Position numbers and translations under genes: made by a program. The notes beneath the pieces are model-generated. The model did no database searches. It saw only the letters and a program-made list of their open reading frames with translations, and was not told the DNA's origin. Shown piece after piece: positions 2,797-63,921 of a stretch of 64,000 nt of DNA. This DNA is from a phage, in sequence record PZ166176.1. One strand, given 5' to 3'. Position 1 is the first letter of the stretch, and every line of letters starts with the position of its first letter.

Positions 2797-3005
2797 ACGT
2801 TCATCAAGTGTGGTAACAGGGTCGTTGACTTTTGTTAAGAGGGGCTTGCACTGCGGTAGTGTTAGAGACTACTTCTTCAGAGGTTAGCTACCAAAGAGGA
2901 AAAGGAATAGTCTCGGCTCAAGAACTTTTACGCTGAAAGTTGGGCTTGGTCTTAGAGAATGTAGCGGTTCTCTACAATCGTCAGCGTCTCTGTTACCACA
3001 TTTAT

Positions 3006-3080
3006 GGCCCTGTAGCTCAATGGGAGAGCTGTCGGCTCATAACCGATAGGTAGCTGGATCGAAACCAGCCAGGGCCACCA
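3006..3080 (+). tRNA. tRNA with anticodon CAT (Met, or Ile2 if lysidine-modified), CCA encoded
   Basis: Cloverleaf folded by hand: acceptor GGCCCTG/CAGGGCC, D-stem GCTC/GAGC, anticodon loop CTCATAA, T-stem GCTGG/CCAGC, discriminator A, CCA. Confidence 0.8.
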
Positions 3081-3353: not shown

Positions 3354-3383
3354 TTGACAACTAACATTATTTTATGTTAGATT
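3354..3383 (+). promoter_or_regulatory. promoter-like site (-35 TTGACA, 18-nt spacer, -10 TAGATT) with palindrome TAACAT...ATGTTA
   Basis: Same actattgacaa motif as at 2767 and 4103; lies just upstream of tRNA-Ser. Confidence 0.4.
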
Positions 3384-3391
3384 ATAAGTAT

Positions 3392-3482
3392 GGAAGGGCA
3401 AATCGACGTGGCGACGAAAACGGTCTTGAAAACCGCCGAGCTTGAAAGAGCCTTGGGAGTTCGACTCTCCCTCCTTCCGCCA
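3392..3482 (+). tRNA. tRNA-Ser (anticodon TGA), long variable arm, CCA encoded
   Basis: Acceptor GGAAGGG/TCCTTCC, anticodon loop CTTGAAA, long variable arm, T-stem GGGAG/CTCCC with loop TTCGACT, discriminator G, CCA; the D-arm is irregular. Confidence 0.7.
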
Positions 3483-3486
3483 GATT

Positions 3487-3572
3487 GGTAGATTGGTGAA
3501 ATGGTAGCCACGACAGTTTGCTAAACTGTAGTCGGAAACGGCGTGTAGGTTCGAGTCCTACATCTACCGCCA
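3487..3572 (+). tRNA. tRNA-Ser (anticodon GCT), long variable arm, CCA encoded
   Basis: Acceptor GGTAGAT/ATCTACC, D-stem GTGA/CCAC (read as in the analysis), anticodon stem ACAGT/ACTGT with loop TTGCTAA, T-stem GTAGG/CCTAC, discriminator G, CCA. Confidence 0.8.
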
Positions 3573-3578
3573 AATTAA

Positions 3579-3664
3579 GATGAGTTGGCTGAATGGTTTA
3601 AGCGGCGGACTGTTAATCCGTGTTCGAAAGAACGATATAGGTTCAAATCCTATACTCATCGCCA
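3579..3664 (+). tRNA. atypical tRNA: serine-like body (long variable arm, discriminator G) with anticodon GTT (Asn codons), CCA encoded
   Basis: Acceptor GATGAGT/ACTCATC (perfect), anticodon stem GCGGA/TCCGT with loop CTGTTAA, variable arm hairpin GTTC-GAAA-GAAC, T-stem ATAGG/CCTAT with loop TTCAAAT, discriminator G, CCA. Isotype cannot be settled by eye. Confidence 0.55.
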
Positions 3665-3671
3665 GAATTAT

Positions 3672-3750
3672 GGACTTGTAGAGTTAAGGTAAACCCCCAG
3701 TCGCCAAGAGGCTTCTGGAATTGCAGGTATCGAATCCTGCCGAGTCCCAG
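3672..3750 (+). pseudogene. degenerate tRNA-like element (no CCA, 8-nt T-loop, no clean anticodon arm)
   Basis: Acceptor GGACTTG/CGAGTCC and T-stem GCAGG/CCTGC are recognisable, but the D and anticodon arms do not fold canonically and CCA is absent. Confidence 0.3.
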
Positions 3751-3829: not shown

Positions 3830-4102
3830 ACACAACATTAAGAGCACTGTGATTGATCGTCGTATCCTGTGCACAAGGTCTGCTCGAAAGACAGTGTTCT
3901 TAGTATTGTGTTGATCACAAAAAGAGTTACCTGAAACTTGACCGGAGTAGGGTTGGATGGGGCAAAAGAAGAAGCGGCTCTCCCATCGACAGCAACGAAG
4001 AATAATATTTGACTTTGGTTTTGTATTATTTTAAGTTAGCTTACCGAACGTAGGGCTAGTCACCCAATGGGATACTCGTCACTGTCCCGCTCAATAAAAC
4101 TA

Positions 4103-4132
4103 TTGACAACCAATAGTAAAATGTAGTATAGT
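4103..4132 (+). promoter_or_regulatory. sigma70-like promoter (-35 TTGACA, 18-nt spacer, -10 TATAGT) with inverted repeat ACTATTG...CAATAGT
   Basis: Good match in both hexamers; lies upstream of tRNA-Gly and restarts transcription inside the tRNA region. Confidence 0.55.
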
Positions 4133-4555: not shown

Positions 4556-4625
4556 TTCCCGTTAGACTTACAGGATAAGAGTTCCACAGCTTATTGTGAT
4601 GTTGGTTCGAATCCAGCACGGGATA
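4556..4625 (+). pseudogene. degenerate tRNA-like element (no CCA, irregular anticodon arm)
   Basis: T-arm GTTGG-TTCGAAT-CCAGC and an acceptor pairing with a 1:72 mismatch are present, but the anticodon region gives only a 4-bp stem with a 6-nt loop and ACA replaces CCA. Confidence 0.3.
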
Positions 4626-4631
4626 CATAAT

Positions 4632-4710
4632 AGCGGGATAGAGGAGTCTGGTCGTCCTCGCCAGTTTCATATGCTGGAGATCATCGGTTCAAATCCGATT
4701 CCCGCCTCCA
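4632..4710 (+). tRNA. tRNA with anticodon CAT and an A1:C72 mismatch (second Met/Ile2-type tRNA), CCA encoded
   Basis: Acceptor AGCGGGA/TCCCGCC, D-stem GAGG/CCTC with an 11-nt loop, anticodon stem CCAGT/GCTGG with loop TTCATAT, T-stem ATCGG/CCGAT with loop TTCAAAT, discriminator T, CCA. Confidence 0.65.
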
Positions 4711-4825: not shown

Positions 4826-4848
4826 AGCCTCCTTATTGGAGGCTTTTT
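4826..4848 (+). terminator. rho-independent terminator after the tRNA cluster
   Basis: Hairpin AGCCTCC-TTATT-GGAGGCT followed by TTTT. Confidence 0.75.
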
Positions 4849-4867
4849 GCTATCTATTGAATAAAAC

Positions 4868-57697: not shown

Positions 57698-58219
57698 TTA
57701 ACTCCCCTTTGGTAGATAGAAACCATGCACTTTATCTCGATAAACAAGACGCATATCACGTTCCCAGTGTGTCCTTATATTCCGTTTCTTGAAGTATAGA
57801 GCACCTTTAGTAACATCTAAAACAGACCGCAATTCAGGAAAATGTTTCTCTAAATAAAGTAAACGCTCCGCTATTGCTTTTGCTTCCTGCCACTTATCTT
57901 TCTCTGTTACGTTAAAAGTTTTCGCATATGAGAATTGTCCTTTCTGGAACAAGACTCCTCTGACTGTGTTAGGGAAGTAGGTATCATTTCTTCTGTTGAT
58001 TACCACGTTCCCAACGGCATTCATTCCTTTTTTACCCAGACCGCGACCTTCTGCGTAAATTGCACAAGCTAATAGAATTTTATCATTATATTGCTTTGTA
58101 CATTTGTGAACTACTTTAGCGGTTTTTACGTTTGCAGCTTCGGCTTTCGCCACAACAGGTGTAAATGTAAAAGCAGTTAAGGATAGTAACGCAACTGTTA
58201 CAAAGTTTTTTATCAGCAA
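57698..58219 (-). CDS. secreted cell-wall hydrolase (SleB-like), candidate endolysin
   Basis: N-terminal signal-peptide-like segment (VTVALLSLTAFTFTPVVAKA) and motifs LACAIYAEGRG...GMNAVGNVVINR...VLFQKGQFS. Confidence 0.55.
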   Translation of the reverse strand: MLIKNFVTVALLSLTAFTFTPVVAKAEAANVKTAKVVHKCTKQYNDKILLACAIYAEGRGLGKKGMNAVGNVVINRRNDTYFPNTVRGVLFQKGQFSYAKTFNVTEKDKWQEAKAIAERLLYLEKHFPELRSVLDVTKGALYFKKRNIRTHWERDMRLVYRDKVHGFYLPKGS

Positions 58220-58318
58220 ATTTTGCCTCCTTTTTAAGTTAACGAATTTCTAGTATAGCACGATAGAGGCTTTATTGCAAGAGGGGTATTTCTCCCCCTC
58301 AAAATCATTTGTTAATTA

Positions 58319-58921
58319 TTATGGACATTCATACCATTCTTTTTTACCACCGAAGGCCATCACCACATCACAAATATCCAGACCAGCTTTACCTACACCA
58401 TATGCTTTCAGCTTCCATTCCCCATCTTCACGGACCAAGGAAGCCACGTGGCAGATTGTGTTGCCAGCTACTTCAGGAGCCAGGAAGTCAAAATCCAGAA
58501 TTTCCACATTGCGCTCGGAGTCGAAGATTTTAAGCATACCTTCAGAAGCATGACCAAAACGTTTCAGACCTGTATCATCATCAATGGTCAGAACAAAGGC
58601 AATCTCTTGTGCATCAGGAGAGATTTTAGCTAGAGTAATATCAATCTGCTCCATGCTGCCAGTTCCATCACGAACATCGTCACCAGCGAAGGTAGAACGT
58701 TCAGGATCAAACTTGTTAGCATAGCAAACCAGATGACGTGCAGACAGCATTTCAGGATTGCCAGCGGCATTGTGACGACAAACCAGTGCACTTACATCCA
58801 GATCCAGTTTAGAATCAGATTTCCAAGAGAATTCAAGGCGCAGTTCTTTCAGAGCCGGAGCAACTTTCTTCAGGGAAATTTTTTCGCTAGAGCCTTTTTT
58901 CAGGGAAATTTTATCAGTCAT
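58319..58921 (-). CDS. TerD-domain protein
   Basis: N-terminal KISLKKG repeats, DLDVSAL and later acidic segments characteristic of TerD-family proteins; 200 aa. Confidence 0.6.
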   Translation of the reverse strand: MTDKISLKKGSSEKISLKKVAPALKELRLEFSWKSDSKLDLDVSALVCRHNAAGNPEMLSARHLVCYANKFDPERSTFAGDDVRDGTGSMEQIDITLAKISPDAQEIAFVLTIDDDTGLKRFGHASEGMLKIFDSERNVEILDFDFLAPEVAGNTICHVASLVREDGEWKLKAYGVGKAGLDICDVVMAFGGKKEWYECP

Positions 58922-58936
58922 CTTTTGTCTCCTCTA

Positions 58937-59206
58937 TTATTTAAGTGTAATACCAGTTACAGTCAATTCTACTTCCAAAAGCTTAGATGTGTTTTGGATT
59001 GATACTAATTGTGCATGATGGTTTAGTTCTACAGCAGAACAATCATTTTCCCCATCATCTACTTTTAAATAAACAATGATTTCACTAAGGTCTAAACCAT
59101 TTTCGTCAAATGCATTTTCATAGACGAAAGTATCTCCTACATCCAAATCTTTAATGGTAAGGCATCGTTTATTTACTTTTTGCTCATCAATTTCGAAGTT
59201 TAACAC
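58937..59206 (-). CDS. small protein, paralog of 60228-60572
   Basis: Shares DLDVGxTF...NGLD...LEVELTVTGITLK blocks with the 114-aa protein on the other side of the vWA gene. Confidence 0.45.
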   Translation of the reverse strand: MLNFEIDEQKVNKRCLTIKDLDVGDTFVYENAFDENGLDLSEIIVYLKVDDGENDCSAVELNHHAQLVSIQNTSKLLEVELTVTGITLK

Positions 59207-59435
59207 TTCTTCCTCCTAATGTTATCTCCGGTTTGTATATACGAAGAATTATAGCATTTTCATTTTCTTTGTCAACCCATTCTTCATAATCGGGCCATAC
59301 ATGAATCTCTACTCTACTTACAATATCTTCCATTCGCACAGTCCCAATGAAATACTCTTTGAGACTGCGCATAATGAAAGCTTCTCTCTCGCGCCAATAA
59401 TTTTCTATGACTTGAGAGGCAAGCTCGTCGATCAT
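59187..59435 (-). CDS. hypothetical protein (82 aa)
   Basis: ORF between the TerD and vWA genes. Confidence 0.4.
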   Translation of the reverse strand: MIDELASQVIENYWREREAFIMRSLKEYFIGTVRMEDIVSRVEIHVWPDYEEWVDKENENAIILRIYKPEITLGGRSVKLRN

Positions 59436-60226
59436 TTTTTAGCACCTACTTTAACAACCCACTCTCCGAACTCTTCAGATAAGAGTTTGTCATAAAGCTC
59501 TGAATCTGTCAAGTCTAAATCTTTAATGCCAATAAAACCAACATTATCATAAGCATTTGCCAGTTCTTTCAGGAAGCCGAACTTCTCATTACCAACGCCA
59601 ACCATGAACCAATAAATAGGTTTATTCTTATTCTCTTCGATAAGACGACGAACAGCACTAGGATCACCATTCTCACCATCCGTCTGGAAGAATACAACAC
59701 CAGGGGTAACGTCAGCACCTGGTTCAGATACAGCTACAACTTTTTCACGCTCTACAGACACTGTTTCAGTTTTACCAAGCAGACGATTAAAGAAGCCTTT
59801 CTTTGGAGCCTCCTCTTGTACCACTTGTTTAGTGGTAATATATTTAGTAACAGTGCCAAAATACTCATCGTAGATATCCGCCATTACAGGGGCGTAATTT
59901 GTTCCACCTCCGATACGAACATTACGCATACATTTGCCAACATAGTCATCGTAAACATCTGCTGTTGCTGGAGTAAGCTCTTGGGAACTCGTATTGAAGG
60001 CCCACATATCAATTTGTTGATTATCGTCGAACAGCATACCAAAAGGAAGCAGTTTACCTACAAAATCACTCACTACCCCACTAGAATATAGACCATGCAT
60101 ACTACCAGAAATATCTAGAGCACATGCTACACGAAGAACAATCTTACCTTCATTCAGGTTCTTATTCTTTTTCAGAGAGAAAGCAAGGTTTTCTTGACGT
60201 TTTTTCAGGCTGATTTTCTCGGACAT
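59432..60226 (-). CDS. von Willebrand factor A domain protein (TerY-like)
   Basis: MIDAS motif ALDISGSM with downstream acidic residues; N-terminal KISLKK segment shared with the TerD gene. Confidence 0.55.
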   Translation of the reverse strand: MSEKISLKKRQENLAFSLKKNKNLNEGKIVLRVACALDISGSMHGLYSSGVVSDFVGKLLPFGMLFDDNQQIDMWAFNTSSQELTPATADVYDDYVGKCMRNVRIGGGTNYAPVMADIYDEYFGTVTKYITTKQVVQEEAPKKGFFNRLLGKTETVSVEREKVVAVSEPGADVTPGVVFFQTDGENGDPSAVRRLIEENKNKPIYWFMVGVGNEKFGFLKELANAYDNVGFIGIKDLDLTDSELYDKLLSEEFGEWVVKVGAKK

Positions 60227-60227
60227 A

Positions 60228-60572
60228 TTATTTCTCCTTCTTAAGTGTAATATTGGTAACTTCTAAATCTACTTCCACCATATTTGTATCTGGTGGGATG
60301 CAATGAGTATAGCCTCGTTGTGCTAGTGATCCATTAATACAAATCGCACTGTTTGTGGAATTTTTAATGAACACCAAGTTACGGTAGGTATCCAACCCTG
60401 CGTCTTCATAGGCATCATAATACATGAATGTGGCCCCTACGTCAAGATCTTCGAAAGCAATAGGTAAATCCTGACTTTTTTCTTCTTGAATATTGAATCT
60501 AAACACGCATACCTCCTCTACCAATTTTGAAGCCCAAATCGTAAGCTTCCTTAGTGATCTTTTGTAACTCAC
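60228..60572 (-). CDS. small protein, paralog of 58937-59206
   Basis: Shared blocks DLDVGATF, GLD, VEVDLEVTNITLKK. Confidence 0.45.
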   Translation of the reverse strand: MSYKRSLRKLTIWASKLVEEVCVFRFNIQEEKSQDLPIAFEDLDVGATFMYYDAYEDAGLDTYRNLVFIKNSTNSAICINGSLAQRGYTHCIPPDTNMVEVDLEVTNITLKKEK

Positions 60573-61062
60573 TTATAGGAAGTGTTACAAGAGGATCATC
60601 TTCTTCAATTTCCATCTTGTCATCTTCTGTTTCAATGAGAGTATTATGCACTTTGTGATAAGGGTTGTCAACACGTTTAAACTTATTCTTTTCTGTGCTG
60701 AAAAAACAATCTGGATCTTCTTCACCATCACCCCAACCTTGGTTAGGATCTCCGTCAGATTGTTCTGTAGGGATTTCACCTGTAAAGTACTCTTCCAGCA
60801 CCATAGCAATACCGTCCCTTGGATTTGAGGAATGCATTAAATCACAAACCTTACCCCAATCCATAGCCCATTCGAACCGTTCACGAACGCCATTTTCATC
60901 CTCCTTTCCAGAGAAAACACAACCATAACTATCATAGTTGCCATACATCTCTTCAATAACAACACCGTCCTTCAAAAGAAAGAGGTAGCAAGGTGATCCG
61001 TCGAAAGAAGTAGAAAGGGCAGCTTTGCCCGATTCTTTGCACAAAAAGCTAAAACAACCCAT
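60499..61062 (-). CDS. hypothetical acidic protein (187 aa)
   Basis: ORF; 3' end overlaps the downstream paralog gene by 74 nt. Confidence 0.4.
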   Translation of the reverse strand: MGCFSFLCKESGKAALSTSFDGSPCYLFLLKDGVVIEEMYGNYDSYGCVFSGKEDENGVRERFEWAMDWGKVCDLMHSSNPRDGIAMVLEEYFTGEIPTEQSDGDPNQGWGDGEEDPDCFFSTEKNKFKRVDNPYHKVHNTLIETEDDKMEIEEDDPLVTLPISELQKITKEAYDLGFKIGRGGMRV

Positions 61063-61265
61063 TACAAACCCTCCTTCAGATTATCAAGAGCTACAGTGGT
61101 TTCACAAGAGTCTCCATAAGTTTTATGATGTTCCAGAAAAGCTTCGGGTCCACCCCAGTCATTATCTTGTGTATTCCAGCCATCAATAAAAGCATCTTCA
61201 ATGATTGTGATCAGTTCTTGTCGGGTTAACTGGATAATATTAGGATCGTTATCGTAGTTAAACAT
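61062..61265 (-). CDS. hypothetical protein (67 aa)
   Basis: ORF with RBS. Confidence 0.4.
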   Translation of the reverse strand: MFNYDNDPNIIQLTRQELITIIEDAFIDGWNTQDNDWGGPEAFLEHHKTYGDSCETTVALDNLKEGL

Positions 61266-61430
61266 CTTCTTCCTCCTCTAAAATATGGAACCCGTAATTA
61301 CAATAATCCTGAAAGGTTTCGTGCGCAAGATCTTCTATATCCTCTTGAGACATATCATCTTCAATTTCGATATCCACAACCTCATTGCATCCACACCAAG
61401 CAGTTTCAATATTCACTCGTAATGTTTTCA

Positions 61431-61628
61431 TTACTCCTCCTCCTCATTGAAGTCAATATCTGCAAGGAGTTCGAATTTACGGAAGTTACGACAACCTTCA
61501 TAAATATAACAATCACGACAAACTGCTAGAACACTTGCGGGATATATACCTCCCATCGGTGCGAATCGTTTTTCGTCATCATAACGGACACCAATGTCTT
61601 CATCAATTATATAGATACGGATTCTCAT
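61431..61628 (-). CDS. hypothetical protein (65 aa)
   Basis: ORF; contains Cys residues; overlaps the upstream stop by 4 nt. Confidence 0.4.
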   Translation of the reverse strand: MRIRIYIIDEDIGVRYDDEKRFAPMGGIYPASVLAVCRDCYIYEGCRNFRKFELLADIDFNEEEE

Positions 61629-62737
61629 TTACCAAGCCCTCGTTTCACAGCAGCTACCATCCCGTCTTCCAGAGATTGAACTTCATTAATATAATCAACA
61701 CGAGCAGCACGGGCTTCCGTATTGATGCGGTTAGTTTCTTCCAACATCTTAACCAAGTTTTCCTGATCGTGACGCAGAGTTTCAATATCCAACACTTGAC
61801 GGTTAGCCAGTGCTGCTGCTTCGATCTGATTCTGTGTGGCAAGATCGCTACCCAGTTTAATTGCCAGGTTAAATTCATCAAGAACGTTATTCTGCGTCTC
61901 TGCTGCTTTCATTTGACGTAAGCTCTCGATATACATTGAGAAGTTAGCAGAGTAAGCAGGAATAACATTATTTACTATGTTACGCGCAGATCGCATTAAG
62001 CTTGCAGAAACTTTTTGCATACCTTGTACACGCGGTCCCATTTGGACACACAGTAGGCGCAATGCTTTTAAATCTGCAATACGAATCTCCAGAAGATCCA
62101 AAGTATCTCGGATCACTTGTCGCTGTTCTACTGCATCTTCTGGAAGAGCAGCCAAAGCTTGTTCTTCTTTTTCATAGGTTGCTGTTAGAAGCTGCATATC
62201 TCGGTTCAAACTTGCAGCATATTGTCCAATAGCTTGATGCAGCTTTTCAAGATATACCAAGGAATCTTCTTCTTTGCGAATATCCATTTGAAGGTTCTTT
62301 ACCAACTCTTCAATACGGTTATTAACATTATCAAACTCCCCGAACAGGTCTTCTTTCATACCCATAACTTTTTTAATGAGTTTAGTAATACCCTTGCTTT
62401 GTTTAATAGAGTTTGGATCAAGTTGTTTTGCCTGTTTAATCAAAGCTGTGAGTCGTTCACTCATCTGATCGCCTTGATTACTACGTTGATGTTTTAACAC
62501 CTCGGCATTCAAGGAACGCAAGGTTGTTCCTGCCTCTGCCCCAATCTCTTCAATCTCTTGTCGGGTCATAGAAGGCAAAACTGGAACTTCTTGCGGTGCC
62601 GCTGGTGCATAAACAGGACTGGCATCTAACACGCTTGGAGCGAATACAGATTTACTTGCATCTGTTGTTGCAGCGAATACACTCATTTCAGACTTCTTCT
62701 GACCACCAGTAGCTGCTTTTAAAAATGGACTTGTCAT
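61625..62737 (-). CDS. coiled-coil protein, possibly TelA-family (toxic anion resistance-like)
   Basis: 370-aa, largely helical, Gln/Leu/Glu-rich; size and architecture fit TelA-like proteins but no diagnostic motif could be verified by eye. Confidence 0.3.
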   Translation of the reverse strand: MTSPFLKAATGGQKKSEMSVFAATTDASKSVFAPSVLDASPVYAPAAPQEVPVLPSMTRQEIEEIGAEAGTTLRSLNAEVLKHQRSNQGDQMSERLTALIKQAKQLDPNSIKQSKGITKLIKKVMGMKEDLFGEFDNVNNRIEELVKNLQMDIRKEEDSLVYLEKLHQAIGQYAASLNRDMQLLTATYEKEEQALAALPEDAVEQRQVIRDTLDLLEIRIADLKALRLLCVQMGPRVQGMQKVSASLMRSARNIVNNVIPAYSANFSMYIESLRQMKAAETQNNVLDEFNLAIKLGSDLATQNQIEAAALANRQVLDIETLRHDQENLVKMLEETNRINTEARAARVDYINEVQSLEDGMVAAVKRGLGK

Positions 62738-63324
62738 TCTTCATTCTCCTCTTCTGCATCTCTTATATATGGTGAAACACCGTACTCTTTAGCTACTTTA
62801 ACCCAATCATCCCATTTATACAACCATAATTTTCCTTCAGTTCCTTCTTTATCTGATTTCAACCACATGTTAGGTTGCTTGCCTGGGTACATGCGATTAG
62901 GTTTACGATTATAACCTCTAACACATCTTGTCGCAAACCTATCTACCAGAACAAGAACATATTTATATTCGTGGTTCAACGGCTCTTTGGAAGTGGCTTT
63001 AGGATTAGCCCCTAACTCTGCTGCCAGTTTTTGCCAATGAGCACCGTGTCTACTAAACTTACCCATACAACCATCAATAGCATGAGCAATTTCGTGCTTC
63101 ATTGTATCCACGATCATATCTCTTGTGGAGTTCTTATGCAAGTGCCAATTTACAACAACAATTTTATCTCGGTAGTTGCACCAACCGAAAGAGTTATTCA
63201 CTTTGTTTCTAACACAAGCTTTATATCCTGCTTCACGTAACATGTTGTAGTAAACAGGAAAATCTTCTTTTATTTCCTGCATCACTTCCCACCACAAGAG
63301 TTGCAAGTCTCTCTCGGTATGCAT
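62734..63324 (-). CDS. SprT-like zinc metallopeptidase
   Basis: HExxH motif (MKHEIAHAI) followed by HGAHW, as in SprT-family proteases. Confidence 0.5.
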   Translation of the reverse strand: MHTERDLQLLWWEVMQEIKEDFPVYYNMLREAGYKACVRNKVNNSFGWCNYRDKIVVVNWHLHKNSTRDMIVDTMKHEIAHAIDGCMGKFSRHGAHWQKLAAELGANPKATSKEPLNHEYKYVLVLVDRFATRCVRGYNRKPNRMYPGKQPNMWLKSDKEGTEGKLWLYKWDDWVKVAKEYGVSPYIRDAEEENEE

Positions 63325-63327
63325 AAC

Positions 63328-63921
63328 TTACACCTTAAAAGCGAAATGCGTGGTCGTGGCTTCAAAATCAGGGCCAGATAAACTTGCACTGAAATCTGAA
63401 ATATTTGTAATTAAAAAGCTTTTATGCATACCTAACACAGCCACGCTTTCAATATCTTCTACTAACATTTCAATCATGTTAGAAACATGGCTGAACGTAT
63501 AGTTTTGTTTTTTGATGGTGTAGAAAGAAAGACTCCCACCTGCTGTATAAGATACCTCTTCAAAATCTTTAATCGTATATTGTGTGCCATCAGTAAAGAA
63601 AATGGTAGCTTTATTAGTAGCACGTTTCTTGTTTTTTGGTCCTTTTTTACGTTTACTGCGAGTAGGCAAACCGTTTGGAAATACTGTAGCTACAAATTCT
63701 TCAGGAGAAACCTCCTTACCGAAATCATAACCGTAAGAAACAGCGTCTATAAACTCGTCGTCTTCATTTTTAAAATAATGAAAATAGGGCCAATTTGAGA
63801 GATTATCGAGCATCTTATGCTCATCCACAGCAGAGAACGTATCCCTCAAAGCACGTGTGATTTGCAAAGCATTAGGCAAACTTTTAACACCTGTAATGGA
63901 AGTACGAATAGAAATTGTCAT
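63328..63921 (-). CDS. hypothetical protein (197 aa)
   Basis: ORF; basic patch KRKKGPKNKKR. Confidence 0.45.
   Translation of the reverse strand: MTISIRTSITGVKSLPNALQITRALRDTFSAVDEHKMLDNLSNWPYFHYFKNEDDEFIDAVSYGYDFGKEVSPEEFVATVFPNGLPTRSKRKKGPKNKKRATNKATIFFTDGTQYTIKDFEEVSYTAGGSLSFYTIKKQNYTFSHVSNMIEMLVEDIESVAVLGMHKSFLITNISDFSASLSGPDFEATTTHFAFKV

What the first reader, a model, noticed from the sequence alone, without database searches (positions are those of the whole stretch)
3672..3750. Degenerate tRNA-like elements without CCA among CCA-encoding tRNAs
Two elements (3672-3750 and 4556-4625) keep acceptor and T-arm pairing but have irregular anticodon arms and no encoded CCA, whereas all eleven good tRNAs encode CCA. 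They may be decaying tRNA genes, tRNA-like processing signals, or non-canonical tRNAs that need CCA addition, which ties in with the phage-encoded nucleotidyltransferase.
Basis: seen in the sequence. Interest (0 to 1): 0.35.

Follow-up and report, generated by a model that had tools for sequence, protein, structure and literature searches.

The report
Anticodon-less tRNA mimics in phage tRNA operons
Two conserved tRNA-shaped RNAs that cannot read codons sit among the real tRNA genes of this E. coli phage, and one belongs to a widespread, apparently undescribed phage-specific class of tRNA mimics with an unusual 8-base T-loop.

Summary
The window is the tRNA cluster of a Phapecoctavirus (phAPEC8-like E. 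coli phage). Elements at 3672-3748 (el1) and 4556-4625 (el2) keep the acceptor, D and T arms. They have a closed hairpin with a 4-nt loop in place of an anticodon loop, and no CCA in register. ARAGORN, the Rfam tRNA model and about 90 deposited annotations all miss them.

They do not look like decaying genes. El1 is nearly invariant across the genus while its flanks are rearranged. El2 is 76-78% identical between Phapecoctavirus and Vequintavirinae, against 58-75% for same-anticodon tRNAs and 47-50% for flanks, and shows compensatory pair changes.

El1's T arm has an 8-nt loop (UAUCGAAU). That 18-mer led to about 98 diverse viral contigs. Nearly all of them have a covarying 7-bp acceptor stem, a tRNA-Leu-like D arm, and a hypervariable 16-265-nt insert where the anticodon arm should be. 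The class is rare in cellular genomes and absent from Rfam 15. A model built without Phapecoctavirus copies hits the window only at el1 (44 bits). The same elbow also occurs, circularly permuted, in Y-RNA-like modules next to phage Ro60 genes.

Best reading: these are non-decoding tRNA mimics matured by tRNA-processing enzymes. Their function is unknown, and no phage CCA-adding enzyme was found.

The parts
3672..3748 (+). el1: 77-nt anticodon-less tRNA mimic, a class-A (8-nt T-loop) member; N73 = C at 3748, no CCA
   Evidence: Sequence; fold z = -3.63; model R1 scores 44.4 bits, E 4.7e-9, the only strong hit in 64 kb; not called by ARAGORN or Rfam
3672..3678 (+). el1 acceptor 5' strand GGACUUG; pairs with 3741-3747 CGAGUCC (7/7, one U.G)
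3681..3696 (+). el1 D arm GAGU-UAAGGUAA-ACCC (G-C, A.C, G-C, U-A; loop has A14, A15 and GG)
   Evidence: aligned to the family D arm
3697..3718 (+). el1 hairpin replacing the anticodon arm: CCAG-UC-GCC-AAGA-GGC-UU-CUGG; the tetraloop varies AAGA/AAUA among relatives
3723..3740 (+). el1 T arm GCAGG-UAUCGAAU-CCUGC with an 8-nt loop, preceded by U (position 48)
   Evidence: the identical 18-mer occurs in 98 viral contig stretches
4556..4625 (+). el2: 70-nt anticodon-less tRNA mimic of a separate lineage; U1.U72 mismatch, A73, then CAU instead of CCA
4565..4583 (+). el2 D arm GACU-UACAGGAUAAG-AGUU; the core CUUAYAGGAUAAG is invariant in all homologues
4585..4598 (+). el2 hairpin replacing the anticodon arm: CACAG-CUUA-UUGUG; the loop is 3-7 nt in homologues
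4601..4617 (+). el2 canonical T arm GUUGG-UUCGAAU-CCAGC
3392..3482 (+). Context: third non-canonical member of the array. It is tRNA-Ser(UGA)-like, with a 7-nt loop CUUGAAA, a long variable arm, an aberrant D arm (C8) and an encoded CCA.
   Evidence: Rfam tRNA-Sec 37.4 bits, below the 47-bit cut-off; not called by ARAGORN; unannotated in relatives
3354..3383 (+). Promoter-like site (TTGACA-18-TAGATT, TG) heading the sub-operon Ser-like, Ser, Asn, el1, Thr
4103..4132 (+). Promoter-like site (TTGACA-18-TATAGT) heading the sub-operon Gly, Gln, Pro, Ile, el2, Met
4826..4853 (+). Intrinsic-terminator-like hairpin plus U run closing the tRNA array

Best explanation
El1 and el2 are maintained genes for tRNA-shaped RNAs that cannot decode. 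I call them tRNA mimics; they are not decaying tRNA genes.

Proposed pathway:
- Both are transcribed inside the phage tRNA operons. Each sits 2-7 nt from its neighbouring tRNAs, the same spacing as between true tRNAs.
- Both fold into an L-shape-compatible cloverleaf of acceptor, D arm and T arm. The anticodon arm is replaced by a closed hairpin.
- They are therefore most likely released like tRNAs. RNase P would cut at the 5' end. Host 3' trimming (exonucleases or RNase BN) would follow, possibly with CCA addition by the host enzyme.
- They then accumulate as stable small RNAs that do not enter decoding.

El1 is the E. coli-phage member of a widespread, phage-specific class. Its features are:
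- a 7-bp covarying acceptor stem;
- U8;
- a tRNA-Leu-like D arm, usually without G18G19;
- U48;
- a 5-bp T stem with the 8-nt loop UAUCRAAY;
- an arbitrary insert of 16-265 nt where the anticodon and variable arms would be.

El2 is a separate lineage, restricted to E. coli phages. It is related to a marginal 'tRNA-Val(AAC)' of phage phiEB49.

What is shown: sequence anatomy, conservation, covariation, class membership and operon context.
What is inferred: expression, processing, CCA addition and function.

My preferred function is that the tRNA frame itself (acceptor stem plus elbow) is the active part. It would act as a competitor or decoy for a host or phage factor that recognises tRNA bodies independently of the anticodon. 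The insert would be a tolerated or exploited cargo position. I hold the functional part at about 0.3.
For: Anatomy and failure of tRNA finders:
-.

Operon context:
- Promoters at 3354 and 4103, and a terminator at 4826.
- No credible ORF overlaps either element.

El1 conservation:
- About 88 records cover it at 95-100% identity.
- In 10 aligned genomes the body varies only in the tetraloop and at position 26/27, plus one single-base insertion. The 3' trailer and the upstream neighbour differ.

The el1 class:
- The 18-mer T arm occurs in 98 viral contig stretches with unrelated flanks.
- Nearly all have a perfect 7-nt acceptor complement 43-265 nt upstream, followed by the conserved UGGCGGAAG..AGACGC.
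- An independent search starting from the D arm recovers the same T arm with a covarying stem.
- Register test that does not select on pairing: 69 of 130 anchor pairs are 7/7 paired in register and 0 in shifted registers. There are 57 distinct acceptor stems.
- In alignment A3, 96.8% of cells are paired against about 40% in slid controls, and 13 of 15 pairs show double changes.
- N-CCA is encoded in 12 of 75 members, U is at position -1 in 52%, and G at +1 in 64%.
- R1, built without Phapecoctavirus copies, hits el1 at 44.4 bits. It hits a 67-nt member in the Synechococcus phage S-CAM9 tRNA cluster at 41.9 bits.
- The class is phage-specific. There are 24 exact hits in 596 Gb of cellular genomes, where about 17 are expected by chance, and only about 8 carry the hallmarks.
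- Many member loci contain no tRNA gene at all.

El2:
- Homologues exist in Vequintavirinae and phiEB49.
- 92.4% of cells are paired against 31-51% in slid controls, and 5 pairs show double changes.
- It is 78% and 76% identical to the A73 and UPEC06 copies. The same-anticodon tRNAs are 58-75% identical and the flanks 47-50%.
Against: - No expression, end-mapping or processing data exist.
- Genomes within Phapecoctavirus are 95-99% identical overall, so el1's invariance is weak evidence taken alone.
- The family was seeded from el1's own T arm. That part of the R1 score is circular. El1's D arm (GAGU/ACCC, with GG) departs from the family consensus.
- El2's covariation rests on only three lineages. 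Its D stem is not maintained: pair 11:27 breaks in three Phapecoctavirus rows and pair 12:26 in the three non-Phapecoctavirus rows.
- The same-anticodon tRNAs used as a yardstick may not be orthologous.
- El2's history reads equally well as stepwise degeneration. The series runs from a 7-nt loop with CCA (phiEB49), to a 5-nt loop with CCA one base out of register (Vequintavirinae), to a 3-4-nt loop with no CCA (this genus).
- No partner protein or conserved neighbour gene was found.
Confidence: 0.55

Rival explanations
1. Processing punctuation only. The elements are kept because their tRNA shape recruits RNase P and 3' processing enzymes, which sets transcript ends or precursor folding in the polycistronic tRNA operon. 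In phages without tRNAs, they would do the same between mRNAs. The released RNA itself would have no function.
For: - Both sit in register within the array, 2-7 nt from neighbours.
- Class-A members show U(-1)/G(+1) enrichment, and 16% have CCA in register, as expected of RNase P and tRNA-type ends.
- Solitary members occur in loci without tRNAs.
- Known precedents, from my own knowledge: plant mitochondrial t-elements and mascRNA.
Against: - In the window both elements are flanked by true tRNAs that already supply RNase P sites, so an extra signal adds little.
- The unusual 8-nt T-loop and the conserved D arm are more specific than RNase P should require.
- Inserts of up to 265 nt are not needed for a cleavage signal.
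Confidence: 0.2
2. Decaying tRNA genes. These would be pseudogenes that lost the anticodon loop and CCA and are drifting towards deletion.
For: - El2 homologues form a graded series, from a 7-nt loop with CCA (phiEB49) to a 3-4-nt loop without CCA.
- The loop has indels within the genus.
- The D stem is imperfect.
- The cluster also carries other marginal tRNAs, at 3392-3478 and the 'Pseudo-CAT' Met.
- tRNA content in the cluster is fluid: tRNA-Tyr is present or absent, and tRNA-Asn is replaced in some relatives.
Against: - El1 and el2 are retained in essentially all genus members, whereas true tRNAs come and go.
- El2 is more conserved across subfamilies than same-anticodon tRNAs, and far more than its flanks.
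- There are compensatory changes in acceptor, T and central stems.
- El1 belongs to a class with strong covariation that also occurs in phages lacking tRNAs.
Confidence: 0.12
3. Cargo display. The tRNA frame is a natural stabilising and processing scaffold, and the functional part is whatever is inserted in place of the anticodon arm, for example an antisense RNA, an aptamer or a decoy.
For: - At one orthologous locus of related Bacteroidota phages, frames are identical and flanks are mostly 59-99% identical. The inserts are unrelated: 30-57% identity, lengths 52-136 nt.
- The insert length range is 16-265 nt.
- Tandem copies carry different inserts.
Against: - El1, el2 and the S-CAM9 member carry only a 14-22-nt hairpin capped by a 4-nt loop, that is, essentially no cargo. 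They are nevertheless conserved.
- This argues that the frame itself is functional, at least for these minimal members.
Confidence: 0.08
4. Unconventional decoding tRNAs, for example frameshift or suppressor adaptors that use a non-standard anticodon loop.
For: - The phiEB49 homologue has a 7-nt loop with U33 and is called tRNA-Val(AAC) by ARAGORN.
- CCA is encoded in some class-A members.
Against: - El1 has a 4-nt AAGA loop closing a 3-bp helix.
- El2 has a 3-4-nt loop that varies in length and sequence within the genus.
- Rfam gives no tRNA score at E<=10.
- phiEB49's copy scores only 24.6 bits, below the 29-bit cut-off.
Confidence: 0.03

Closest known systems
Phage T4 stable RNAs species 1 and 2 (rnaC, rnaD) in the T4 tRNA cluster
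   Same: These are small non-tRNA RNAs encoded inside a phage tRNA operon and annotated as stable RNAs. RnaC ends in a canonical T arm (CCGGG-UUCGAAU-CCCGG) followed by an acceptor-like 3' strand, so a tRNA-like frame encloses a 139-nt body. To my knowledge their function is still unknown.
   Different: I saw no sequence similarity. RnaC has a 7-nt T-loop, an imperfect acceptor (5/7 by my reading) and no recognisable D arm after the 5' strand. R1 gives no hit on rnaC; its only match in the T4 locus is tRNA-Ser, at 22 bits.
YrlA-type bacterial and phage Y RNAs (Rfam RF02553), tRNA mimics bound by Ro60/Rsr
   Same: Both are tRNA-like modules with conserved D and T arms and no anticodon loop. [quoted passage not shown] The same class-A elbow (8-nt T-loop plus a GG-less D loop) occurs in three YrlA-like permuted modules. 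Two of them lie next to a TROVE/Ro60 gene, in Rhizobium phage RHph_TM30 and in a jumbo viral contig.
   Different: YrlA is circularly permuted: T arm, then a closed acceptor hairpin, then the D arm, with the RNA ends in the Ro60-binding stem. Its consensus has a canonical T-loop and a GG D loop. El1, el2 and at least 75 class-A members are not permuted. They get no RF02553 hit. No TROVE gene is found in the window or in the other fetched loci.
Canonical tRNA (Rfam RF00005) and tRNA pseudogenes
   Same: Shared features are the 7-bp acceptor, U8, D arm, U48/Levitt position and T arm, the location in a tRNA array, and tRNA-like spacing.
   Different: There is no 7-nt anticodon loop and no tRNA-model score at E<=10. 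El1 has an 8-nt T-loop. Conservation is not pseudogene-like.
Eukaryotic and viral tRNA-like RNAs made by tRNA processing: mascRNA, and the MHV68 TMER vtRNAs (from my own knowledge; not tested here)
   Same: Both are tRNA-shaped, non-aminoacylated RNAs released by RNase P or RNase Z. They receive CCA and are used as processing or promoter modules, or as small effectors.
   Different: They belong to a different domain of life and are unrelated in sequence. This is an analogy of mechanism only.
Engineered 'tRNA scaffold' for recombinant RNA, with the insert placed in the anticodon arm (from my own knowledge)
   Same: The architecture matches long-insert class-A members: an intact acceptor, D and T frame with a foreign RNA replacing the anticodon arm.
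   Different: It is an artificial construct. Whether phages use the frame for the same stabilising purpose is inference.

Membership tests
Canonical tRNA (RF00005 / ARAGORN) | Detected by tRNA covariance model at or above 29 bits, or by ARAGORN | tested here: not met
   No hit on 3672-3750 or 4556-4625 even at E<=10. ARAGORN calls neither.
Canonical tRNA (RF00005 / ARAGORN) | 5-bp anticodon stem closing a 7-nt loop with U33 and a purine at 37 | tested here: not met
   El1 has the tetraloop AAGA on a 4+3-bp stem. El2 has the 4-nt loop CUUA, and the loop is 3-7 nt in homologues.
Canonical tRNA (RF00005 / ARAGORN) | Acceptor stem, D arm and T arm in cloverleaf order | tested here: met
tRNA pseudogene (decaying) | Faster divergence than functional neighbours, broken helices, patchy retention | tested here: not met
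   El2 is 76-78% identical against 58-75% for true tRNAs and 47-50% for flanks. Helices are 92% paired with compensatory changes. El1 and el2 are present in about 88 and 71 or more records.
Class-A phage tRNA mimic (defined here) | 5-bp T stem with the 8-nt loop UAUCRAAY, preceded by U | tested here: met
   El1 3722-3740 is U-GCAGG-UAUCGAAU-CCUGC. This feature seeded the family, so it is met by construction. El2 does not meet it, having a canonical 7-nt loop.
Class-A phage tRNA mimic (defined here) | 7-bp acceptor whose strands directly abut U8/D arm and the T arm | tested here: met
   El1 is 7/7 paired. For the family, 69 anchor pairs are 7/7 in register and 0 in shifted registers.
Class-A phage tRNA mimic (defined here) | D arm of the U-R-G-Y-N-N-A-A...type (consensus UGGCGGAAGAUAGACGC) | tested here: inconclusive
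   El1 has UAGAGUUAAGGUAAACCC. It fits the positions U8, R9, G10, A14 and A15, but has an A.C mismatch and a GG-containing loop. The closest members are L060 UAGCGUAAGGUAACGC and L014 UAGAGGAAGUACACUC.
Class-A phage tRNA mimic (defined here) | Significant score with a covariance model built without the query lineage | tested here: met
   R1 scores 44.4 bits, E 4.7e-9, at 3672-3748. The next hit is tRNA-Pro at 18.8 bits. Caveat: the T-arm columns derive from el1's own 18-mer.
YrlA / Y RNA (RF02553) | Permuted order (T arm, closed acceptor hairpin, D arm) with the ends in a Ro60-binding stem carrying the GNCGAA motif | tested here: not met
   El1 and el2 are not permuted. The only RF02553 hit in the region lies on tRNA-Pro/Ile, at 22.8 bits against a 69-bit cut-off.
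YrlA / Y RNA (RF02553) | Encoded next to an rsr (Ro60/TROVE) gene | tested here: not met
   A tblastn search with a phage TROVE protein finds nothing in the window.
tmRNA | tRNA-like domain plus a tag-peptide reading frame | tested here: not met
   ARAGORN and Rfam find no tmRNA in the window. The elements are only 70-77 nt.
T4 rnaC/rnaD-type stable RNA | Stable small RNA co-processed from the phage tRNA precursor | not testable with these tools
   This needs RNA data. Position in the operon is compatible.

The most novel reading that the evidence does not exclude
El1 is the experimentally tractable, E. coli-phage representative of a previously unrecognised, widespread and phage-specific class of tRNA-framed RNAs. 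The class has its own elbow architecture: an 8-nt T-loop that may compensate for a D loop usually lacking G18G19. The same elbow is reused in phage Y-RNA modules.

Under this reading the frame engages, or titrates, a host tRNA-body-recognising factor. Candidates are a tRNA-targeting defence nuclease or a tRNA-processing or quality-control enzyme. The anticodon-arm position would be a hypervariable cassette that diversifies rapidly between related phages.
Probability: 0.3. Interest if true: 0.85.

Novelty: new variant of a known kind. Interest (0 to 1): 0.62.

Why it matters
- Phage tRNA genes are now read as counter-measures to tRNA-targeting immunity as well as codon-usage helpers. tRNA-shaped RNAs that cannot decode do not fit the codon-usage role, and they are invisible to annotation pipelines.
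- If the class defined here is real, many phages, including ones with no tRNAs, carry a dedicated tRNA mimic with a distinctive elbow and an exchangeable insert. This bears on the old question of what the T4 'species 1/2'-type stable RNAs do.
- It gives structural biology a natural 8-nt T-loop elbow to study.
- Phapecoctavirus on E. coli K-12 and cyanophage S-CAM9 are cultured systems in which this can be tested.
- There is a practical annotation consequence: short 'hypothetical protein' ORFs are currently called over these loci in some genomes.

Tried and rejected
1. Canonical tRNA with other boundaries. ARAGORN and Rfam (E<=10) find none.
2. CCA in another register.
   - El1 reads ...GAGUCCCAG. 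A CCA would be in register only with a 5-bp acceptor. I rejected this as incompatible with the 12-bp acceptor/T stack.
   - Vequintavirinae el2 copies have CCA one base out of register.
3. Intron-containing tRNA. Inserts of 16-140 nt are too small for group I introns, and no anticodon-stem halves flank the inserts.
4. YrlA membership. Rejected on gene order, Rfam score and the absence of TROVE.
5. A conserved partner protein. All-against-all comparison of ORFs within about 3 kb of about 70 class-A loci found no shared neighbour. The largest cluster covered 6 loci and looks like DNA methyltransferases from its DPPY motif, though I did not scan it against Pfam.
6. A CsrA-type GGA site in el2's D loop (UACAGGAU). 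Rejected because the GG is simply G18G19 of an ordinary D loop.
7. A phage CCA-adding enzyme. None was found among 10 ORFs scanned with Pfam or in relatives' annotations.
8. A wider el2 family. A 15-mer from its D arm gave 49 viral contig hits, and all but phiEB49 were unrelated coding sequence. This also serves as a negative control for the el1 result.
9. Literature.
   - Sequence strings gave no relevant hit.
   - Five keyword searches found no description of an 8-nt-T-loop phage tRNA-like class.
   - Subscription journals are not covered.
10. One search failed on a term shorter than three characters, and one pattern was too short for a collection scan.
Full report
CONTEXT

The window is 99% identical over the tRNA region to Escherichia phages ECO340P2, dw-ec and anhysbys. 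These are Phapecoctavirus, Stephanstirmvirinae, phAPEC8-like.

ARAGORN finds 10 tRNAs between 3006 and 4710, all on the + strand. A permissive Rfam scan adds one weak tRNA-clan hit at 3392-3478. It reports nothing over 3672-3750 or 4556-4625, even at E<=10.

Consensus scans place sigma-70-like promoters at 2767, 3354 and 4103, and a terminator-like hairpin at 4826-4844. This gives two sub-operons:
- El1 lies in Ser-like / Ser / Asn / el1 / Thr.
- El2 lies in Gly / Gln / Pro / Ile / el2 / Met.

Both elements are 2-7 nt from their neighbours, which is the spacing seen between true tRNAs. No ORF longer than 66 aa overlaps the area, and all the short ones overlap tRNA genes.

THE OBSERVATION

It is correct.

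El1 (3672-3748) has these parts:
- a 7/7-paired acceptor (GGACUUG/CGAGUCC);
- U8 and A9;
- a 4-bp D stem with one A.C mismatch, and a UAAGGUAA loop;
- a central hairpin, CCAG-UC-GCC-AAGA-GGC-UU-CUGG;
- four linker bases;
- a T arm, GCAGG-UAUCGAAU-CCUGC. Its loop is 8 nt, not 7.
- a 3' end of C-AGC rather than N-CCA.

Its predicted fold is this cloverleaf, with z = -3.63.

El2 (4556-4625) has these parts:
- a 6/7 acceptor with U1.U72;
- a D arm containing GG;
- a 5-bp stem closed by CUUA;
- only two linker bases;
- a canonical T arm;
- a 3' end of A-CAU.

Its z-score is -1.86, similar to the true tRNAs next to it.

All 10 ARAGORN tRNAs and the 3392-3478 element are followed by CCA. That eleventh 'good' tRNA is itself irregular. 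It has an aberrant D arm with C8. ARAGORN does not call it. Its only Rfam hit is tRNA-Sec at 37.4 bits, below the 47-bit cut-off. It is unannotated in relatives.

ARE THEY DECAYING?

El1:
- It is found at 95-100% identity in about 88 phage records. Almost all are Phapecoctavirus, whatever host name they carry.
- In 10 aligned genomes the 76-nt body varies only in the tetraloop (AAGA/AAUA) and at position 26/27, plus one single-base insertion.
- The sequence immediately outside differs: CAGCUUU, AAGUAUU or CAGAAAA.
- In phiWec188 and phiWec179 the upstream tRNA-Asn is replaced.
- True tRNAs in the cluster are less stable. tRNA-Tyr is present in phAPEC8 and absent here.

El2:
- Homologues exist outside the genus. 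In Vequintavirinae (A73, W70, UPEC06, LTH01) it lies directly after tRNA-Tyr. In the drexlervirus phiEB49 it is annotated tRNA-Val(AAC).
- Ten distinct sequences are 92.4% paired on the cloverleaf, against 31-51% when partners are slid.
- Double changes occur in three acceptor pairs, one central-stem pair and one T-stem pair.
- The central loop is free to vary: CUUA, UUUA, CUA and UUU within the genus, AUAUC and GUCUC in Vequintavirinae, and UUAACAA in phiEB49.
- Between the window and A73/UPEC06, el2 is 78% and 76% identical. tRNA-Met, Gly, Gln and Pro are 58-75% identical and the flanks 47-50%.
- phiEB49's copy scores only 24.6 bits with the tRNA model, and the Vequintavirinae copies score nothing.

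These data argue for purifying selection on the tRNA frame and none on an anticodon.

Caveats for el2:
- Only three deep lineages are available.
- The D stem is not kept.
- The tRNAs used as a yardstick may not be orthologous.

THE LEAD FROM EL1'S T ARM

Retrieval:
- The exact 18-mer GCAGGTATCGAATCCTGC occurs in 98 stretches of IMG/VR contigs with unrelated surroundings.
- In nearly every one, the 7 nt after the T arm have a perfect complement 43-265 nt upstream.
- That complement is followed by a conserved motif that was not used in the search: U-GGCGGAAG(A)UAGACGC. This is the D arm of bacterial tRNA-Leu minus G18G19 (the comparison with tRNA-Leu is from my own knowledge).
- Searching from that D arm instead retrieves 88 stretches. 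Their 3' hairpins fall into two groups. One is the same 8-nt-loop T arm, with a covarying stem (GCAGG/CCUGC, GUAGG/CCUAC, CCAAG/CUUGG, GCUGG/CCAGC and others). The other is a second type, for example GCAAGGGUGAAAGUCCCUUGC.

Statistical support:
- I ran a register test that does not select on pairing. It anchors only on D-arm and T-arm patterns.
- In that test 69 of 130 anchor pairs are 7/7 paired in register and none in shifted registers. There are 57 different acceptor stems, and all four Watson-Crick pairs occur at pairs 2-6; pairs 1 and 7 lack C-G.
- On a 40-sequence alignment, 96.8% of cells pair against about 40% in slid controls, and 13 of 15 pairs show double changes.

Properties of the 75 unique members:
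- Length is 68-295 nt, with a median of 132.
- U is at position -1 in 52%, against a 31% background.
- G is at +1 in 64%.
- A is at position 73 in 47%.
- N-CCA is encoded in register in 12, where about 1 is expected by chance.

What the class is not:
- ARAGORN does not call these RNAs.
- Rfam 15 has nothing for them at gathering threshold or at E<=5.
- Most loci contain no tRNA at all.
- There is no conserved neighbouring protein.

Distribution:
- In 596 Gb of bacterial and archaeal genomes the 18-mer occurs 24 times. About 17 are expected by chance, by my calculation of 2 x 5.96e11 / 4^18.
- Only about 8 of those carry the hallmarks. They are from Petrimonas, Dysgonomonas, Dyadobacter, Acidobacteriota, Omnitrophota and a mis-binned phage contig.
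- The class is therefore essentially viral.

IS EL1 A MEMBER?

A covariance model (R1) was built from 40 non-Phapecoctavirus members with inserts trimmed. It hits the window once, at 3672-3748, with 44.4 bits and E 4.7e-9. The next hit is tRNA-Pro at 18.8 bits.

This is partly circular, because the T-arm columns come from el1's own 18-mer. The independent features are these:
- the acceptor abuts U8 and the T arm in register;
- U48 is present;
- the D arm fits the U-R-G...A14-A15 pattern. It differs from consensus in having GG in the loop and an A.C mismatch. It is closest to members such as L060.

R1 also finds a 67-nt member in Synechococcus phage S-CAM9, at 41.9 bits. Its central hairpin is only CUC-UUCG-GAG, and it lies between tRNA-Leu and tRNA-Thr(UGU). 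Like el1, it sits directly upstream of tRNA-Thr(UGU). Two metagenomic members do the same.

RELATION TO Y RNAS

- The same elbow (8-nt T-loop plus a GG-less D arm) occurs in circularly permuted order, T arm then closed hairpin then D arm, in three places.
- One is the first of about eight Y-RNA-like modules upstream of a TROVE/Ro60 gene in Rhizobium phage RHph_TM30. One is next to a TROVE gene in a 545-kb viral contig. One is in a Dyadobacter genome bin (MAG).
- The Rfam YrlA consensus has a canonical T-loop and a GG D loop, so this elbow is a variant.
- No TROVE gene is in the window or in the other loci.
- The YrlA literature had already inferred an unknown elbow-binding effector from conserved D and T stems (10.1101/312249). 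[quoted passage not shown]

INSERTS

- At one orthologous locus of related phages (L010, L042, L065, L070 = a Petrimonas prophage, L097) the frames are identical.
- Their flanks are mostly 59-99% identical.
- The inserts are unrelated, at 30-57% identity and 52-136 nt long.
- This could mean cargo exchange or an unconstrained position.
- Because el1, el2 and the S-CAM9 RNA have essentially no cargo yet are conserved, I favour the frame as the functional unit.

MECHANISM

Shown: anatomy, conservation, covariation, class membership and operon position.

Inferred:
- co-transcription with the tRNAs;
- 5' cleavage by RNase P;
- 3' trimming, possibly followed by host CCA addition;
- accumulation as stable non-decoding RNAs.

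E. coli matures CCA-less T4 tRNAs in this way (my own knowledge).

The function is unknown. My preferred guess is competition for a factor that recognises the acceptor/T-arm/elbow irrespective of the anticodon. Such immune nucleases exist. [quoted passage not shown] Nothing here links el1 or el2 to any of them.

THE NUCLEOTIDYLTRANSFERASE LINK

- Ten unassigned ORFs of the window-equivalent region gave TelA, TerD, vWA-TerF and weak glycosyltransferase hits, or nothing.
- Relatives annotate RNA ligase and phosphoesterase genes just upstream of the window, but no CCA-adding enzyme.
- I could not confirm the link.

VERDICT

The elements are best read as maintained, non-decoding tRNA mimics.

El1 opens onto a widespread phage-specific class that I could not find in Rfam 15 or in the searchable literature. 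Literature coverage is incomplete.

I rate this a new variant of a known kind, namely tRNA mimics and stable RNAs of phage tRNA operons. Interest is 0.62.

Noticed in passing
window 3392-3482: A tRNA-Ser(UGA)-like gene with anticodon loop CUUGAAA, a long variable arm, an encoded CCA and a strongly aberrant D arm (C8, CAAAUCGACGUGGCGACGAAA). ARAGORN misses it. Its only Rfam hit is tRNA-Sec at 37.4 bits, below the 47-bit cut-off. It is unannotated in phAPEC8 and Mt1B1_P17.
   Followed up: partly
window 2806-3004: The leader between the promoter at 2767 and tRNA-Met is a roughly 200-nt closed multi-branch structure. Its fold has z = -5.95, and 0 of 200 shuffles fold as well. No Rfam family matches it. 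It is a candidate ncRNA co-transcribed with the tRNAs. The 3830-4095 spacer is less exceptional, at z = -1.58.
   Followed up: partly
window 3006-3080: The first tRNA-Met(CAU) has the T-loop AUCGAAA, with A at the positions of T54 and N60. As far as I recall this pattern is typical of eukaryotic initiator tRNAs, and it is unusual for a bacterial or phage elongator-type tRNA with G1-C72.
   Followed up: no
window 4632-4710: The second tRNA-Met(CAU) has an A1.C72 mismatch. It is flagged 'tRNA-Pseudo-CAT' in relatives' annotations. It directly follows el2, which also has a 1:72 mismatch.
   Followed up: no
window 3572-3579, compared with L002 1174-1390: This phage lacks the roughly 215-bp insert carrying tRNA-Tyr(GUA) that phAPEC8 and many relatives have between tRNA-Ser(GCU) and tRNA-Asn. 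In Mt1B1_P17 it is flagged Pseudo-GTA. Phage tRNA-Tyr is a known counter to Septu and retron defences (PMC13096335; 10.1101/2023.03.15.532788).
   Followed up: no
L010, L042, L065, L070/L195, L097 (class-A loci): At an orthologous locus of related Bacteroidota phages, including a Petrimonas sulfuriphila prophage, the tRNA-like frames are identical and the flanks conserved. The inserts are unrelated, at 52-136 nt long.
   Followed up: partly
L213 2450-3640 (Rhizobium phage RHph_TM30): About eight tandem Y-RNA-like modules, each starting with GUUGCGA, lie between tRNA-Leu and a TROVE/Ro60 gene. The first uses the 8-nt-T-loop elbow. Two others match Rfam YrlA at 36-37 bits, below the 69-bit cut-off.
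   Followed up: partly
L003 1435-1513; L004 1069-1147 and 2589-2655: Vequintavirinae phages A73 and UPEC06 carry further marginal tRNA-like elements that ARAGORN misses. One scores 35.8 bits as tRNA just upstream of tRNA-Met. Another scores 19 bits as tRNA-Sec-like just downstream of the el2 homologue.
   Followed up: no
L185 about 1801-1866 (phage ESCO25): The el2 copy of ESCO25 has an extra A in the T-loop (GGAUUCGAAUCC, 8 nt). This is either a real variant or a sequencing error.
   Followed up: no
L187 14186-16543 (anhysbys; just upstream of the window's left end): Relatives encode a putative RNA ligase, a phosphoesterase and a second RNA-ligase-like protein within about 4-6 kb upstream of the tRNA cluster. 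This suggests a tRNA-repair module near the tRNA operons.
   Followed up: no
window about 58,000-63,500 (- strand), read on L188 1293-5894 (ECO340P2, the 99%-identical relative): Tellurite-resistance-type genes (TelA, TerD, vWA-TerF-like) sit in the replication-side module of this phage.
   Followed up: no
L214 1197-1260 (Lactobacillus phage SAC12B): A class-A T arm is followed by a short hairpin and a canonical-looking D arm (UAGCUCAAUUUGGAAAAGC). It lies in an 0.9-kb non-coding stretch near a tRNA-Gly and may be another permuted tRNA-like module.
   Followed up: no
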